Source: a virus | Taxonomy: Duplodnaviria > Caudoviricetes | IMG/VR virus record: IMGVR_UViG_3300044477_000241 | Span: 1 to 33,705 of that record | DNA: 33,705 nucleotides | Direction: 5' to 3' (one strand) | In this document: one piece after another, positions 1,161-22,953 of the stretch | Layout of the letters: each line of letters starts with the position of its first letter | Position numbering within the stretch: position 1 is the stretch's first letter | Position numbers and translations under genes: made by a program | The notes under the pieces: generated by a model | The model's database searches: none | What the model was told of the DNA's origin: nothing | What the model saw: only the letters and a program-made list of their open reading frames with translations

Positions 1161-1970
1161 TTAAAAGCCGCTTAAATCATAATTAGCCGTCAACATCTCT
1201 ACCTTCTTCTTACGGCCCTTCGGGCTATTATTAGCCACGGTTACTTCCATTACGTATTGTTGTTGCGACCACTTGCACTTCTTCGCGTAAGTGTCCAGGA
1301 TTGGGGATGGATATGATGATAGTAAGAATCGTCCTTTCATTGATTTACATACCTTCAGAAGGTTTTCGAAGTCCTCAAGAGTGTAGCCATCATAGTGTCC
1401 ACAGTCGCTGTTGAAGTAGGGAGGATCGAGATAGAAGAATGAATCAGCGCCATCCCTGGACTCAATGATCCGGATGGCATCGGTACACTCGATCTGAACC
1501 AACTGCAGGCGGATCGAATAGTCCTCGGTGAATGAATCGCGCTTGTTCGCGATCTTCTTAGAGGTTGTATTCTTTGCCTTGTCGTAACCCCAGGAGCCGT
1601 CGATGATGGAAGCAAAGGACTGAGTGGCCAGCGTCCATAGTGCCCACGCTCTCTTGATCTCGTTGAACATATCAGGGTTCTCATAAATAACCCTTGCCTT
1701 GCGATGCAGATCCCGCGCATGGAGGCTGATTCGGATCTCCTGTTCCAGGGCAACAAAGTCATTCTTGACGACCCTGTAATAGTTGATCAGTTCCTTGTTC
1801 GTATCGTTGATCACCTCCACGGGAGATGGCTTTTTTGCGAAAAATACTGCGCCGCCTCCAAAGAAGGGTTCGCAATATAGAGTATGTTCCGGAAGCATCC
1901 CTACAATCTTCCCGCACAACTTCTGTTTACCGCCGTAGTAGGTAATGGGCGTTCTCATCTCTATACTCAT
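1161..1970 (-). CDS. DNA N6-adenine methyltransferase (Dam/D12 class)
   Basis: YYGGK, EPFFGGGAV (SAM-binding), VIND and YLDPPY catalytic motifs. Confidence 0.95.
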   Translation of the reverse strand: MSIEMRTPITYYGGKQKLCGKIVGMLPEHTLYCEPFFGGGAVFFAKKPSPVEVINDTNKELINYYRVVKNDFVALEQEIRISLHARDLHRKARVIYENPDMFNEIKRAWALWTLATQSFASIIDGSWGYDKAKNTTSKKIANKRDSFTEDYSIRLQLVQIECTDAIRIIESRDGADSFFYLDPPYFNSDCGHYDGYTLEDFENLLKVCKSMKGRFLLSSYPSPILDTYAKKCKWSQQQYVMEVTVANNSPKGRKKKVEMLTANYDLSGF

Positions 1971-9528: not shown

Positions 9529-11019
9529 CTATGATAATTTCTTTACGTAACCAATTTTTACAGCGATGTTGCGCGATACAGCAACACCTACAAGGCCGAC
9601 ACTACCGTTTAGAACTGAGGTTGATTGAATGTCCTGGTTAGGATTGATTACGAACTTCGCTCCGGAGAGCTCGCCATCTCGTTCCATCTGATCCAGAAAT
9701 CCCTGAGCGAGACTTTCCAGGTAAGCGACAGTATCCGCAGGGAGCTGTCCTGTCTTAGCATCCACGTAAACGGGGCCGTTGAGCTGTTTGAGCAATTTGT
9801 AATAACAGCCTCTCACAGCTTTATCCATCGCAATAGAATTGCTGATGAATGCAAAATCAGAATCTGCTGGGCAGCAAGCATGGTCATCATTGAAGTAGCT
9901 TCCGGAATCTCCGACATATTTCTTCAGGAACACATAGCCGCGATTATGCAGCGTGTTTGCCGGAGAGGAGGTTTCGTCAGTAACAAGATCGCCGTTTGCA
10001 AATGCGGGCACGTCGAGCTCGACAGAGGCCATATTGAACTTGCCTACCCATCCAATATTTTCATGAACCTTGGCGCGCGATAACGCGCCTAACTGTGCAC
10101 CAATGCAGGTGATGCTGTATCCCTTTGCATCGAATAACACCTTTCCTGCAGCAGCACCATCCTGGCCGATACTTACCATTACACCTTCTCCGGTGAGAGC
10201 ACGTAAGTTGGGGAGCGTAGTAAGGTCGTCGATAGCTGCGATGTTAGCGCCGTACATGAGAGCGACCGGCATGTGCTTCGCGTCAAGTTTATCGCGCATG
10301 CTCTTGAGCGCCGTAATATGTGCGGTATTGAAGGCGACATCCTTCATGTATACGGCCATTTTGCGAAGTTTACCCTGCGTGGCCACCTGCATGGATTCAA
10401 CCTCGTCGAAGTTGTAGGCCTGCGGAATAGGATAAATTCCAACGTGCAATTCAGCGCCAGAATTGATGCGGAAGAATTCGCTGATATGGTAATGAACCAC
10501 GTCAAAGAATGAAGCTTCGCCACCGCTGAACTGGGTAACAGCCGCAGTACCGGTTCCGGTATTAGCGTAGACCAGGTGCGTACCGCCATTGATACTGGAT
10601 CCGAGACCGGCGGGAGGCGTCAGCGCAACATTCTTTGCTGTACCTCCCGCGATGTAGCCATGATTCTCTGTGCCAAGGTTAATGGAAGCGCGCAGACCTG
10701 TAGCGATATCTTCAGCAATATCATCTGTAAGTACGGTGTAAGTCCCGAGGACTACACCATCCATTGTGATGGTTGATACGTTTCCAACTGTTCCCACTGC
10801 AGTGATCAGTACTGCCCCACCGGTGGCAACAGTTTCATCCGAATTATTCGGATCAATTCCGAGCGCGATGGCGTGCTCAGGATCGATGATCTGCTTCACC
10901 GGAACGTCGAATCCAGCCGGGGAGAAATTTGAGAAAACAAGCAGGCCAGAAATGTGATCTTCACCTGCGAGCGGCCTGCTCAGGCCACCATTTTGACGGT
11001 CAAATGTGATATTACTCAT
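9529..11019 (-). CDS. Tail sheath protein (DUF2586-like)
   Basis: DHISGL, HYHISEFFR, VHENIGWV and YFNDDH...SDFAFI...MDKAVR motifs. Confidence 0.85.
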   Translation of the reverse strand: MSNITFDRQNGGLSRPLAGEDHISGLLVFSNFSPAGFDVPVKQIIDPEHAIALGIDPNNSDETVATGGAVLITAVGTVGNVSTITMDGVVLGTYTVLTDDIAEDIATGLRASINLGTENHGYIAGGTAKNVALTPPAGLGSSINGGTHLVYANTGTGTAAVTQFSGGEASFFDVVHYHISEFFRINSGAELHVGIYPIPQAYNFDEVESMQVATQGKLRKMAVYMKDVAFNTAHITALKSMRDKLDAKHMPVALMYGANIAAIDDLTTLPNLRALTGEGVMVSIGQDGAAAGKVLFDAKGYSITCIGAQLGALSRAKVHENIGWVGKFNMASVELDVPAFANGDLVTDETSSPANTLHNRGYVFLKKYVGDSGSYFNDDHACCPADSDFAFISNSIAMDKAVRGCYYKLLKQLNGPVYVDAKTGQLPADTVAYLESLAQGFLDQMERDGELSGAKFVINPNQDIQSTSVLNGSVGLVGVAVSRNIAVKIGYVKKLS

Positions 11020-11097
11020 AATTATGATTTTGGATTGTCGAAACTTAATGCAATAAGTAGAATTACAATGAAAAGATATAAGAGTATTAAATCCATC

Positions 11098-11796
11098 TTA
11101 TTTGCTCCTTTTCATTAAAAGAATTATAAATAGAATTGATAAAACAAAGAATATCGGGAATCCCCACTCGGAGATTACCTGGTACGTATCTGCGACCTTG
11201 TCCCATTTTGTCGTAGGCTCTTCAAAGCCCGGATCGGAGCAAGGAATGGTGTCGTTAATTATGGTTGTATCGTGTATGGTATCAGCGGGGGTCGATGCTT
11301 TCATGGTCATCGTATTATTAACGCTATCGTATGAATATTCAATTGCGATATTTGATCCGCTGTCAGGTTCTTTTTTGTAAACAACATTATTCTTAAGTGA
11401 ACCAAGATTTACATGGGCAGTATTACTATCTGCTGGGCGAATTATTTCATTAACTATCGTATCGTGGATATAAGCCACCGGAGGCTTACTATTGCCAAAC
11501 TTCTCCTGGCATCGTTGATAGGTAGTGCAGGAGCTGGCCATCATAATGAACAGCAAAGGAATCATTACGATTGAGGTTCCGTCGAACCGATTACGGTAAT
11601 TGCGATCGCTCTGATCCCTGAACCAGAGAGCCGTGTCCTTAACACGGAATAATAGCAATACCACAGGCATGATCGCGGCAAACACCTCTCCGCTCATTTT
11701 ATCGCTGACGAGACAGTAGATGCAGACTGCTAGAATAATCAGGCCGATAATAGTAGTTTTCCAATTGTCAATAAGACGTTCCTTCGCTTTTTTCAT
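11098..11796 (-). CDS. Putative holin-unimolecular spanin fusion (232 aa)
   Basis: Start reassigned to MKKAK (11796). NWKTT + two TM helices, an internal hydrophobic stretch with ASS-C lipobox (Cys90), a polar domain and a C-terminal TM + KRSK. Confidence 0.7.
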   Translation of the reverse strand: MKKAKERLIDNWKTTIIGLIILAVCIYCLVSDKMSGEVFAAIMPVVLLLFRVKDTALWFRDQSDRNYRNRFDGTSIVMIPLLFIMMASSCTTYQRCQEKFGNSKPPVAYIHDTIVNEIIRPADSNTAHVNLGSLKNNVVYKKEPDSGSNIAIEYSYDSVNNTMTMKASTPADTIHDTTIINDTIPCSDPGFEEPTTKWDKVADTYQVISEWGFPIFFVLSILFIILLMKRSK

Positions 11797-11818
11797 TATT
11801 GGTTTTTTTGAGGTTTTG

Positions 11819-11856
11819 AAAAAAGGGCCTGCATTGCAAGCAGGGTACAGGCCCTT
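11819..11856 (-). terminator. Intrinsic terminator/attenuator between the lysis genes
   Basis: Minus strand AAGGGCCTG...CAGGCCC hairpin followed by a T tract. Confidence 0.75.
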
Positions 11857-11874
11857 ACACAACAGGAGGAGGTA

Positions 11875-12636
11875 TCAGGATTTTTTAGTTGTCGTTTTCG
11901 GAGGCGTGTAAATATTACGTTCCGGAATACCGTTATTCCTTAACCATAACTGGACATCGAATGAGGGGCAGGCCTTTTTATCGAATTGGTTGTGCCCGGC
12001 TATTACTATATTCGGATGCTCTTTGATTGTTGCCAGAACGTATAAATAAAGGGCCTGCTTTTGCTTATCAGTCCGCGTATCGAGCGGTTCCATCTTAGCA
12101 TTGCAGCCTCCGACATATACGACGTGGCGACTTTTGTAGTTGATACCCGCAACGCCATTCGTGATTTCCCACGAATCAACGTTATTATCGCGGTTGTAGG
12201 GGACGAGGTTTTCGATCGTACCGTTCAGATGGATCATATCGGCATAACCGACCTGATGCCATCCACGTTGTACCAGGTGCCACTGCTCAATATCCTGACG
12301 GGACACCTCGCGTCCGGCAGGCGTGGCAGTGCAATGGATAACCAAAAATGCAAGGGCTGCCATAAAAATGAATTTTTTCATAAGTAAACTATGAAGTTTA
12401 GTTTTAATCTTCCCTTTCTTGGAGCCTGGCATATGCTCAGGAAGATCCGAATTGCCAGTATCTTTCATCAGGCGTCTACGACACCAGGTAACGAACCAGC
12501 GAGCGAGTGCCTGGCCTATCCAGATACATGCCCCCGTAGCTATGGATGATAAAATCAACCATAGCCAATTGGGGATCATGTTCACCAGGACAACGCCCAA
12601 CACTGTCGCCAATGCGTTTAATTTGTGTTCCAACAT
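11875..12636 (-). CDS. Endolysin, T7-lysozyme-type N-acetylmuramoyl-L-alanine amidase, with an N-terminal membrane (holin-like) extension
   Basis: VIHCTAT, GW..VGY, GHN and KACPSFDV Zn-amidase motifs. The first ~50 aa are hydrophobic. Confidence 0.9.
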   Translation of the reverse strand: MLEHKLNALATVLGVVLVNMIPNWLWLILSSIATGACIWIGQALARWFVTWCRRRLMKDTGNSDLPEHMPGSKKGKIKTKLHSLLMKKFIFMAALAFLVIHCTATPAGREVSRQDIEQWHLVQRGWHQVGYADMIHLNGTIENLVPYNRDNNVDSWEITNGVAGINYKSRHVVYVGGCNAKMEPLDTRTDKQKQALYLYVLATIKEHPNIVIAGHNQFDKKACPSFDVQLWLRNNGIPERNIYTPPKTTTKKS

Positions 12637-12639
12637 TGT

Positions 12640-13551
12640 TTAAGCGGACTGTTGGATAATTGCAACAACACCAGGATTAGTCCCACGGCGCGAACGTCCA
12701 CCGGCGTACAGAGAAGCGCTGTACACGTCGCCGTAGTTTTGGGGATCGTCAATTCTCTCGAAGTAATTGACTGCACCAATAGCACGGGCAACTTCATTTT
12801 TCTGCCAACACAGTGTAACTGCGTTATCAGTTGCAGCTTCCTTGAAGACTTCAGGATTTGGATCCTTAATCACGGGAGTCTGGGCGTTGGTAGCGACAAG
12901 CACCGAGGATCTCTCCAGAATAGTGAATCCGTATAACCTGCCGATGGTGCCTTCTTCAAGATTCATGATTCGGCTGGCATCGCGGCCAGTATTCCAGGTT
13001 GCGTCGGCCTGCAGTTGTTCAGCCATATCAGTGTCAATAAGAGCATAGCGATCTTTCTTGGGAATGTTCAGCTTGTTCATCAGCTTCTGAGCTTTTTTCA
13101 GGTCAGCCGCTAACAAGGCTTTACGATTTCCGGTTCCTACGTGAGCTTCAACTGAACCACCACTGGTTCTTATGATCATACAGTTCGTTGACCATTTGTA
13201 AAGAAGTTGCTCAGCAGCGAGCTCAGTGAGGGCGCTGGTATCTTCGCCGAGAATTGAATCCAGCTTATTGTAAGAACACTCGGCCTTTTCAGCCTCTGAA
13301 ATCAATCTCGGATCACTGGTAATATAGTCGAGAGCATAGAGCACATCGACATCCTGACGCCTGGAAATCGTTGCAGGCAACTGTGTTCTGTTAATCTTTG
13401 CCTTGCTGGGTTCGCCAGCCTTGGGAATATGGACAACAGTGCCATTACCAATGAGATCACCGGATTCGTCGAAACTATAATTTACGAATGAATTATCTTT
13501 GAAAAGATTTTCAATGATATATTTCACCCATATTTCTTTATTAATTGCCAT
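12640..13551 (-). CDS. Major capsid protein
   Basis: 303 aa, downstream of the protease; VHIP.AG, IPKKDRYALID and GTIGRLYGFTILE motifs typical of HK97-fold coats. Confidence 0.85.
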   Translation of the reverse strand: MAINKEIWVKYIIENLFKDNSFVNYSFDESGDLIGNGTVVHIPKAGEPSKAKINRTQLPATISRRQDVDVLYALDYITSDPRLISEAEKAECSYNKLDSILGEDTSALTELAAEQLLYKWSTNCMIIRTSGGSVEAHVGTGNRKALLAADLKKAQKLMNKLNIPKKDRYALIDTDMAEQLQADATWNTGRDASRIMNLEEGTIGRLYGFTILERSSVLVATNAQTPVIKDPNPEVFKEAATDNAVTLCWQKNEVARAIGAVNYFERIDDPQNYGDVYSASLYAGGRSRRGTNPGVVAIIQQSA

Positions 13552-22569: not shown

Positions 22570-22953
22570 TCACTCTAATCGAGTGTAGTAATATGTTGTA
22601 TTAAATCCTGTTATAGGGTCTGTTTTAAGAATCAATTTTTCACTTGTAAACTTTTTTAAAATCAAAATGTTTGTCGATGCACCTATTGTAACGTAAAGTT
22701 TCCCGTCTTTTATATTCCAAAATCCATTCGCAGTAGTATCTTCTTCAATAGAACGAACATATCTATTATTTTCTAAATATGTTGTTTTTTCATAAAGGAG
22801 CTCTTCGCCTGTCTCTTTGTAAACACTTTCATTTCGAATACATATTATACTATCAACGACCCACGTTGTCCCTTCTAATTGCTCAAGGGTTTTATCGCAT
22901 GAGGTTAAGACTATGGAAATGATGACGCCCAATATTACAACGATTCTTTTCAT
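22570..22953 (-). CDS. Lipoprotein with lipocalin-like domain (moron)
   Basis: MKR + hydrophobic core + LTS-C lipobox; LEGTTW and GFWNIKDGKL motifs; AT-rich. Confidence 0.8.
   Translation of the reverse strand: MKRIVVILGVIISIVLTSCDKTLEQLEGTTWVVDSIICIRNESVYKETGEELLYEKTTYLENNRYVRSIEEDTTANGFWNIKDGKLYVTIGASTNILILKKFTSEKLILKTDPITGFNTTYYYTRLE

What the first reader, a model, noticed from the sequence alone, without database searches (positions are those of the whole stretch)
11098..11796. Holin fused in frame to a unimolecular spanin, with an internal lipobox
Seen: one ORF with NWKTT + 2 TM helices (aa ~16-51), a basic linker (RNYRNR), hydrophobic IVMIPLLFIMM-ASS-C90 (codon 11527-11529), a ~120-aa Thr/Asp-rich domain, and a C-terminal TM + KRSK. 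Established: u-spanins such as T1 gp11 have an outer-membrane lipoprotein signal plus a C-terminal TM, and NWKTT 2-TM proteins resemble small holins. Inference: a lysis polyprotein split by host signal peptidase II into a holin-like membrane part and a lipidated spanin, fixing 1:1 stoichiometry. I know of no description of this design.
Basis: partly seen in the sequence, partly recalled or inferred. Interest (0 to 1): 0.85.

Follow-up and report, generated by a model that had tools for sequence, protein, structure and literature searches.

The report
Holin-like protein fused to unimolecular spanin
One phage gene joins a small holin-like membrane protein to a predicted envelope-spanning lysis lipoprotein (a spanin), a join shared by about thirty diverged relatives while other phages keep the two parts as separate genes, and the host's lipoprotein peptidase likely cuts it in two.

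Summary
The ORF is real (minus strand, 232 aa) and directly follows the amidase endolysin of a Mu-like, probably Bacteroidota, phage. The join is conserved: 30 aligned full-length proteins (20-37% identical to the query) share it, with the mid-protein lipobox Cys in 29 of 30. Both halves also occur alone: of 65 hits, 25 are fused, 27 are stand-alone lipoprotein-plus-C-terminal-helix proteins and 9 are stand-alone two-helix proteins. Trees reject a single origin of the fusion. The window has no usable internal start. PHROGs already holds the architecture, unannotated (phrog_5595).

The C-half has u-spanin anatomy but no homology to T1 gp11, and it carries periplasmic cysteines. 'Holin' is unproven: there is no holin-family hit, only 7 of 42 stand-alone loci have an endolysin just downstream, and a second small membrane gene competes for the role. 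Lipidation and cleavage are inferred, not shown.

Five literature searches found no description. This scan noted a similar mid-protein-lipobox design on other DNA (e1-5873197). Verdict: a genuine, recurrent lysis polyprotein architecture, a new variant of known parts.

The parts
11098..11796 (-). Fused gene, 232 aa: two-helix module + internal lipoprotein signal + u-spanin-like domain
   Evidence: phrog_5595 matches aa 5-219, E 2e-8; A-rich stretch before the ATG; homologues start at the same place
11635..11796 (-). aa 1-54: basic N-terminus, NWKTT, helix 1 (aa 14-30), helix 2 (aa 34-50), conserved KD; holin-like module, predicted N-in/C-in
   Evidence: 62% identical to stand-alone P0023
11572..11634 (-). 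aa 55-75: basic linker, predicted cytoplasmic; would serve as n-region of the internal signal; no ATG/GTG/TTG
11527..11571 (-). aa 76-90: hydrophobic h-region and lipobox ASS-C90
   Evidence: Cys in the same column in 29 of 30 fused proteins, always after G or S
11164..11529 (-). aa 90-211: predicted periplasmic domain, short helix then five beta strands; extra Cys96 and Cys186
   Evidence: AlphaFold2 on a 59-sequence alignment, pLDDT 84, pTM 0.42; Cys96 invariant in that alignment
11101..11163 (-). aa 212-232: C-terminal membrane helix and KRSK tail
11875..12381 (-). Amidase endolysin, directly upstream (likely own start at Met86 or Met92 of the 253-aa frame)
   Evidence: Pfam Amidase_2, phrog_822 amidase E 2e-49; 5 of 5 relatives match only aa 86-245
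12469..12636 (-). 'Gene X' module: second small hydrophobic protein, in frame with the amidase in this genome; rival holin candidate
   Evidence: separate small membrane genes in this slot in L001, L002, L014-L018, L072-L074; homology to them not shown

Best explanation
The gene encodes one four-segment membrane protein that is likely a lysis polyprotein: the host's Lgt and signal peptidase II would lipidate and cut it at the internal Cys90, freeing a predicted unimolecular spanin and leaving a small inner-membrane protein that is likely a holin or one half of a two-part holin. Predicted steps: the basic N-terminus stays in the cytoplasm and helices 1 and 2 form a hairpin. The basic linker and aa 76-89 act as an internal signal that puts Cys90 at the periplasmic face. 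The lipidated end goes to the outer membrane while aa 212-228 stay in the inner membrane, spanning the periplasm. After the amidase removes the wall, the spanin would fuse the two membranes. The fusion arose more than once from neighbouring genes, which delivers both parts 1:1. Shown: frame, conservation, separate existence of both halves, cassette position, repeated origin, purifying selection on the N-half in one pair. Inferred: topology, lipidation, cleavage, spanin activity. Weakest step: holin activity.
For: Fusion conserved in 30 aligned proteins at 20-37% identity to the query, plus L069, L072 and L073. Lipobox Cys in 29 of 30, always after G or S, with the same make-up as in 27 of 27 stand-alone relatives. 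Stand-alone relatives of the C-half have an N-terminal lipoprotein signal and, nearly all, a C-terminal helix; 8 of 8 tested on DNA have an in-frame stop 0-16 codons upstream and lie one or two genes after an endolysin-like gene. In four of the five other DNA-read fused loci the endolysin is directly upstream (L001, L002, L072, L073). The helix-then-beta-strands pattern matches that described for T1 gp11 (PMC6139136, section 13). A Met-plus-K/R internal start is possible in only 6 of 30 proteins, and not in the window. One fused clade is rejected for the spanin part (p-AU 6e-14) and for the two-helix part (p-AU 0.008). L072 vs L073 differ by 10 synonymous and 0 non-synonymous codons in the two-helix part. 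The nearest named language-model clusters for aa 1-60 are mostly holin-bearing, score 0.81-0.84, a lead only.
Against: No holin family matches the N-half: 0 of 13 members in Pfam, one PHROG holin hit at E 0.05, none to the T1 holin. Only 7 of 42 stand-alone loci have an endolysin within 1.5 kb downstream; 22 of 42 have a portal-like gene there (many are near-copies, and some are cut short). A second small membrane gene precedes it in 37 of 42, and those genes, more than this one, give weak holin hits. Related cassettes (L014-L018, L074) have amidase plus u-spanin without this module nearby. In Mu, a holin/antiholin pair proposed from topology proved dispensable (PMC9239132, passages). The window's lipobox has A at -3, off the consensus. 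The family has periplasmic cysteines, absent from all 58 u-spanins of PMC6139136. There is no homology to gp11 beyond the lipobox. Helix 2 is below the hydropathy threshold in 14 of 30. L069 has no endolysin next to the fused gene.
Confidence: 0.5

Rival explanations
1. Processing is as above and the C-half is a u-spanin, but the two-helix part is not a holin. It is an antiholin, a holin helper or a spanin accessory, and gene X is the holin.
For: A small membrane gene precedes the stand-alone module in 37 of 42 loci, and such genes carry the weak holin hits (phrog_920 E 0.003, phrog_20 E 0.04; phrog_4898 E 0.009). Cassettes L014-L018 and L074 show gene X, amidase and u-spanin without the module. 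The module fuses repeatedly to more than one kind of spanin-like domain. Pairs of small membrane proteins with unequal roles are known (PMC13056207, abstract).
Against: No test separates the roles. Class II-like N-in/C-in anatomy and holin-bearing neighbour clusters fit a holin. In L010-L013 and L019 other small two-helix proteins fill the slot between endolysin and spanin.
Confidence: 0.27
2. The protein is not cleaved, or not sorted to the outer membrane. It stays a four-segment inner-membrane protein, perhaps lipidated, with a role other than spanning the periplasm.
For: I found no paper on a lipobox processed behind two membrane helices. The window's lipobox has A at -3. Helix 2 is weakly hydrophobic in 14 of 30, so the Cys could face the cytoplasm.
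Against: The lipobox and h-region are kept in 29 of 30 diverged fusions with the same make-up as in stand-alone lipoproteins. No other spanin candidate was seen in the window's late operon.
Confidence: 0.13
3. Two in-frame overlapping genes: the spanin is made mainly from an internal start, and the long product is a by-product of a lost stop codon.
For: Such in-frame joins occur sporadically in these cassettes: gene X-amidase in this window, X plus module in P0007, tandem module in P0063. 6 of 30 fusions have a Met followed by K/R, and 16 of 30 have some Met in the linker or early h-region.
Against: The window has no ATG/GTG/TTG in codons 51-77. Starts at 78, 81, 85 and 86 lie inside the h-region and give no charged n-region. 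14 of 30 have no candidate Met, and some linkers are only 3-6 residues long.
Confidence: 0.08
4. Assembly or sequencing artefact removing a stop between two genes.
For: The window comes from one assembly, and no raw reads were available.
Against: The same join occurs in 29 diverged proteins and five other contigs and in a 243-position PHROG family.
Confidence: 0.01

Closest known systems
Unimolecular spanins (T1 gp11 type; PMC6139136)
   Same: Lipobox Cys, short helix then several beta strands, C-terminal membrane helix with basic tail, position after the endolysin. Bacteroidetes phages are reported to use u-spanins only (PMC12596118, passage).
   Different: The lipoprotein signal is internal (Cys90), behind a two-helix module. 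There is no sequence similarity to gp11 beyond the lipobox. It carries conserved periplasmic cysteines, absent from the 58 u-spanins of that paper.
Class II (two-helix, N-in/C-in) holins, e.g. phage 21 pinholin (class recalled)
   Same: Size, two hydrophobic segments, basic ends, place in the late lysis cassette.
   Different: No family match. After cleavage it would keep a third helix (the spent signal). It is paired with an amidase lacking an obvious export signal and with a second small membrane gene.
PHROG family phrog_5595 (unknown function, 243 positions)
   Same: The profile spans both halves. The window matches at E 2e-8, P0033 at 1e-41; stand-alone halves match positions 9-72 and 75-234 separately.
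   Different: Unannotated; no function or architecture described there.
Two-protein holin-like systems (mycobacteriophage LysF1a/LysF1b, PMC13056207 abstract; Mu gp19/gp20/gp25, PMC9239132 passages)
   Same: A two-helix N-in/C-in protein beside a second small membrane protein in a lysis cassette.
   Different: No homology tested; none is fused to a spanin.
Bradyrhizobium japonicum FbcH cytochrome b-c1 precursor (recalled; search did not retrieve it)
   Same: A bacterial membrane polyprotein split at an internal signal sequence by a host signal peptidase.
   Different: Respiratory, and cut by a type I-like peptidase as I recall; no lipidation and no sorting to the outer membrane.

Membership tests
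Unimolecular spanin | N-terminal lipoprotein signal | tested here: not met
   The signal is internal (aa 76-90). It is met by 27 of 27 stand-alone relatives, Cys at 6-37, and would be met after cleavage.
Unimolecular spanin | Lipobox [LVI][ASTVI][GAS]C | tested here: inconclusive
   The window has ASSC (A at -3). L is at -3 in 14 of 23 fused hits with the motif located. PMC6139136 verified the off-consensus AWAC.
Unimolecular spanin | C-terminal transmembrane helix | tested here: met
   aa 212-228, hydropathy 2.8, then KRSK
Unimolecular spanin | Periplasmic short helix followed by four or more beta elements | tested here: met
   AlphaFold2 model, one short helix and five strands, pLDDT 84, pTM 0.42; a prediction
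Unimolecular spanin | No periplasmic cysteine (0 of 58 in PMC6139136) | tested here: not met
   Cys96 and Cys186; Cys96 invariant in 59 sequences
Unimolecular spanin | In a lysis cassette near the endolysin | tested here: met
   Amidase directly upstream; the same in L001, L002, L072, L073; not in L069
Unimolecular spanin | Outer-membrane localisation and complementation of lambda Rz/Rz1 | not testable with these tools
   bench test
T1 gp11 sequence family | Homology of the periplasmic domain | tested here: not met
   hhalign probability 21.7%, 21 columns over signal and lipobox only; gp11 not named among the 50 fold-search rows shown
Holin (class II) | Small protein with two membrane helices, N-in/C-in | tested here: inconclusive
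   Met in the window by hydropathy and charge; helix 2 passes in 16 of 30 fused relatives; no topology predictor available
Holin (class II) | Homology to a described holin family | tested here: not met
   Pfam 0 of 13; PHROG best holin hit E 0.05; language-model leads 0.81-0.84 only
Holin (class II) | Linked to an endolysin | tested here: inconclusive
   Yes in the window; 7 of 42 stand-alone loci within 1.5 kb downstream; in phage fF4 it lies at the end of the tail module
Holin (class II) | Timed, energy-poison-triggerable membrane lesion | not testable with these tools
   bench test
Winoviridae (Mu-like Bacteroidota phages) | Core genes and protein-cluster phylogeny (PMC8776804) | not tested
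   Transposase, MuB-like protein, Mu portal, Clp protease, capsid, sheath and gpD-like genes are present, but no clustering was run

The most novel reading that the evidence does not exclude
A true holin-spanin polyprotein, evolved repeatedly in Bacteroidota phages, in which cleavage by the host's signal peptidase II is the licensing step of lysis. One cut both matures the outer-membrane-anchored spanin and releases an active holin, whose leftover signal helix or weakly inserted second helix sets the timing. It would show that Lgt/LspA read lipoboxes deep inside polytopic proteins.
Probability: 0.22. Interest if true: 0.88.

Novelty: new variant of a known kind. Interest (0 to 1): 0.68.

Why it matters
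Holins and spanins are described as separate gene products, and lipoboxes are sought only near the N-terminus. A recurrent, conserved fusion with a mid-protein lipobox would add a new spanin gene architecture. It gives a clean test of whether Lgt and signal peptidase II process an internal site behind two membrane helices, and of whether host processing can couple inner- and outer-membrane lysis. Annotation rules that need an N-terminal signal would miss such genes, which may account for some phages listed as spanin-less (inference). It also assigns a likely role to phrog_5595 and to a family of stand-alone cysteine-bearing u-spanin-like proteins.

Tried and rejected
Pfam gave nothing for the whole protein or for relatives above cut-off. 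tblastn against cultured phages gave 2 chance hits for P0001 and none for P0004. The word-indexed search for shorter relatives of aa 1-60 found none; the unindexed search did. Two scans of bacterial genomes found no relative (narrow patterns), so the host is not pinned down. No RNA holder is listed; run X2 touches only the flanks, which is no evidence on expression. The full-length fold on 8 sequences was poor (pLDDT 57). The fold search of the mature domain gave 1 match at E<=0.001, unnamed, TM 0.37. The language-model search of the whole protein gave only unnamed clusters under 0.85. The window's gene X was not found by a profile of 7 slot-mates. The L019 two-helix protein is not homologous to the module. 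Stop-codon recoding was considered and is not needed, as the frame is open in table 11. The upstream TTG start at 11862 was rejected because homologues begin at the ATG. No complex prediction of the two halves was obtained, so binding between them is untested.

Full report
Observation. The finding lies on the minus strand: ATG 11796 to stop 11098, 232 aa, open in table 11. All named features are present: NWKTT (aa 11-15), hydrophobic segments at 14-30, 34-50, 76-92 and 212-228, RNYRNR, ASS-C90 at 11527-11529, and KRSK. The contig that is probably the window's source covers 10800-13000 in one piece at depth 20.5 without differences; this is not independent, and no raw reads were available.

Setting. 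The window is a 33.7-kb virus record with a Mu-type transposase, a MuB-like protein, Mu portal and gp36-like genes, Clp protease, capsid, sheath, tube and tape measure. A Bacteroidota host is inferred from neighbour clusters and from a relative of the N-half in Flavobacterium phage fF4; it is not shown. The order is capsid, small hydrophobic 'gene X' module in frame with an amidase endolysin (Amidase_2; phrog_822 E 2e-49), this gene, sheath. A scan for hydrophobic ORFs showed no other holin or spanin candidate in this operon.

The join is conserved. phrog_5595 (unknown function, 243 positions) matches aa 5-219. An unindexed search of 1.84 billion cluster representatives gave 65 hits. Sorted by length and matched part, 25 are fused (the query included), 27 are C-half alone, 9 are N-half alone, and 4 are other: a cut fusion, a fragment, an unrelated long protein and a tandem N-half. 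With five more fusions full-length proteins align at 20-37% identity to the query. The Cys is in the C90 column in 29 of 30, always after G or S; the thirtieth has a CSGC six residues on. The fused frame was read from DNA in L001, L002, L069, L072 and L073. An endolysin is directly upstream in four of these, not in L069. Two scans of bacterial genomes found none.

Both halves exist alone. The 27 C-half proteins carry the lipobox at residue 6-37. For 8 of 8 loci tested, an in-frame stop lies 0-16 codons before their ATG. In the 11 stand-alone loci an endolysin-like gene lies one or two genes upstream; I recognised these by eye from motifs, not by a family scan. In five of them (L010-L013, L019) a different small two-helix gene sits between endolysin and spanin, in four overlapping its start, which offers the path to fusion. 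The N-half closes within 75 codons in 42 of 42 stand-alone loci; 37 of 42 have a small membrane gene just upstream, 7 an endolysin, 6 a lipoprotein with C-terminal helix and 22 a portal-like gene within 1.5 kb downstream. Many of these loci are near-copies and some end early. Profiles built only from stand-alone halves find 25 of 30 (N-half) and 30 of 30 (C-half) fusions at E<1e-3; the sets were picked by likeness to the query, so this is partly circular.

Repeated origin. A quick tree of 56 spanin parts needs 10 changes between fused and alone (shuffled mean 18.7; well-supported branches force 2). One fused clade is rejected, p-AU 6e-14 (55 rows, long-branch L020 left out; P0071 was dropped for lack of my motif, and the partial rows P0014, P0016 and P0018 and the five fusions with another spanin-like domain were not included). 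The tree of 47 two-helix parts also rejects it, p-AU 0.008, on only 58 columns. The window's N-half is closer to stand-alone P0023 (62%) and to P0003 (67%), which bears a different spanin-like domain, than to fusions with its own kind of C-half (41-43% at best). Gains cannot be told from losses. L072 and L073 differ by 10 synonymous and 0 non-synonymous codons in the N-half, so it is under purifying selection while fused (one pair).

No internal start. In codons 51-92 the window has ATG/GTG/TTG only at 78, 81, 85 and 86, all inside the h-region. A Met followed by K/R within seven residues is found in 6 of 30 fusions, any Met in 16 of 30; linkers run from 3 to 23 residues and all hold K or R.

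The C-half. AlphaFold2 on 59 sequences gives a short helix, five strands and a long C-terminal helix (pLDDT 84, pTM 0.42), the pattern described for T1 gp11 in PMC6139136 (I read the abstract, section 13 with its lipobox subsection, and two passages). Against membership: profile comparison with gp11 aligns only the signal and lipobox, the fold search was uninformative, and the family has periplasmic cysteines (Cys96 invariant), whereas none of that paper's 58 u-spanins has one. It likely works like a u-spanin, but it is not a gp11-family member.

The N-half. It has class II-like anatomy (class recalled), but no holin family matches. The nearest named language-model clusters mostly carry holin families, at 0.81-0.84 and with shares of 18-100%, which is a lead only. 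The neighbouring gene X types give the few weak holin hits, and cassettes L014-L018 and L074 show no such module near the spanin. Mu warns against calling holins by topology (PMC9239132, passages); two-protein holin-like systems exist (PMC13056207, abstract). Helix 2 passes my hydropathy cut in 16 of 30 fusions; if it did not insert, Cys90 would face the cytoplasm. I put holin or holin subunit at about even odds.

Mechanism. Shown: frame, conservation, separate halves, position, repeated origin. Inferred from established lipoprotein biogenesis (Lgt, LspA, Lol; recalled): N-in hairpin, internal signal, lipidation and cleavage at Cys90, outer-membrane anchoring with the C-terminal helix left in the inner membrane, membrane fusion after the amidase acts. 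The kept lipobox is the only evidence for processing, and it is indirect. Expression is untested.

Literature. Searches for spanin+holin+fusion+Bacteroidetes (9 of 10 listed), u-spanin+holin+fused (7 papers), 'holin-spanin fusion', lipobox+internal signal peptide+Lgt+lipoprotein and holin-spanin/spanin-holin/holin domain/lipobox found no description. Passages read in PMC12596118, PMC10367356, PMC9636201 and PMC8776804 describe none. Searches were seen as listings. The library lacks most subscription papers, and I opened no supplements; the SpaninDB tables and SI file 7 of PMC8776804 could list such proteins. Among this scan's notes, the sequence look-up found nothing, while e1-5873197 reports a two-helix module joined to a lipoprotein with a mid-protein signal in another genome and e1-6471142 a similar join to a secreted beta domain. 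These are unchecked notes, not support.

Verdict. A real, recurrent gene architecture built from known kinds of parts: a new variant. Interest 0.68; the boldest reading, cleavage licensing a true holin-spanin polyprotein, has probability about 0.22.

Noticed in passing
window 11875-12636 (-): The amidase frame carries an 85-aa N-terminal extension with a hydrophobic 'gene X' module and no stop between them. 5 of 5 amidase relatives match only aa 86-245, and the slot holds a separate gene in relatives. This is a sporadic in-frame join or a membrane-tethered endolysin.
   Followed up: partly
proteins P0007 and P0063: Other joins of the same module: a gene X-like part fused to it (P0007) and a tandem duplicate (P0063).
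   Followed up: no
L021-L062: The stand-alone module follows a second 53-62 aa membrane gene in 37 of 42 loci, often directly before a portal-like gene; possibly a conserved two-gene holin-like pair.
   Followed up: partly
window 11509-11511 and 11239-11241 (-): Cys96 is invariant and a Cys near 186 is common in this u-spanin-like family, suggesting a disulfide, unlike described u-spanins.
   Followed up: partly
window 22570-22953 (-): A 127-aa lipoprotein (N-terminal signal, LTSC) with no Pfam match, outside the lysis cassette; possibly a superinfection-exclusion or moron gene.
   Followed up: no
L010:2815-3053 versus L011:2814-3302: A 162-aa six-helix membrane gene before the endolysin in L011 appears in pieces in L010.
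   Followed up: no
L069:4905-5663: The two-helix module is fused to what looks like a further kind of lipoprotein domain with C-terminal helix, with no endolysin beside it.
   Followed up: no
window 1161-1970 (-): D12-class adenine DNA methyltransferase at the end of the tail module, a position also seen in phage fF4.
   Followed up: no
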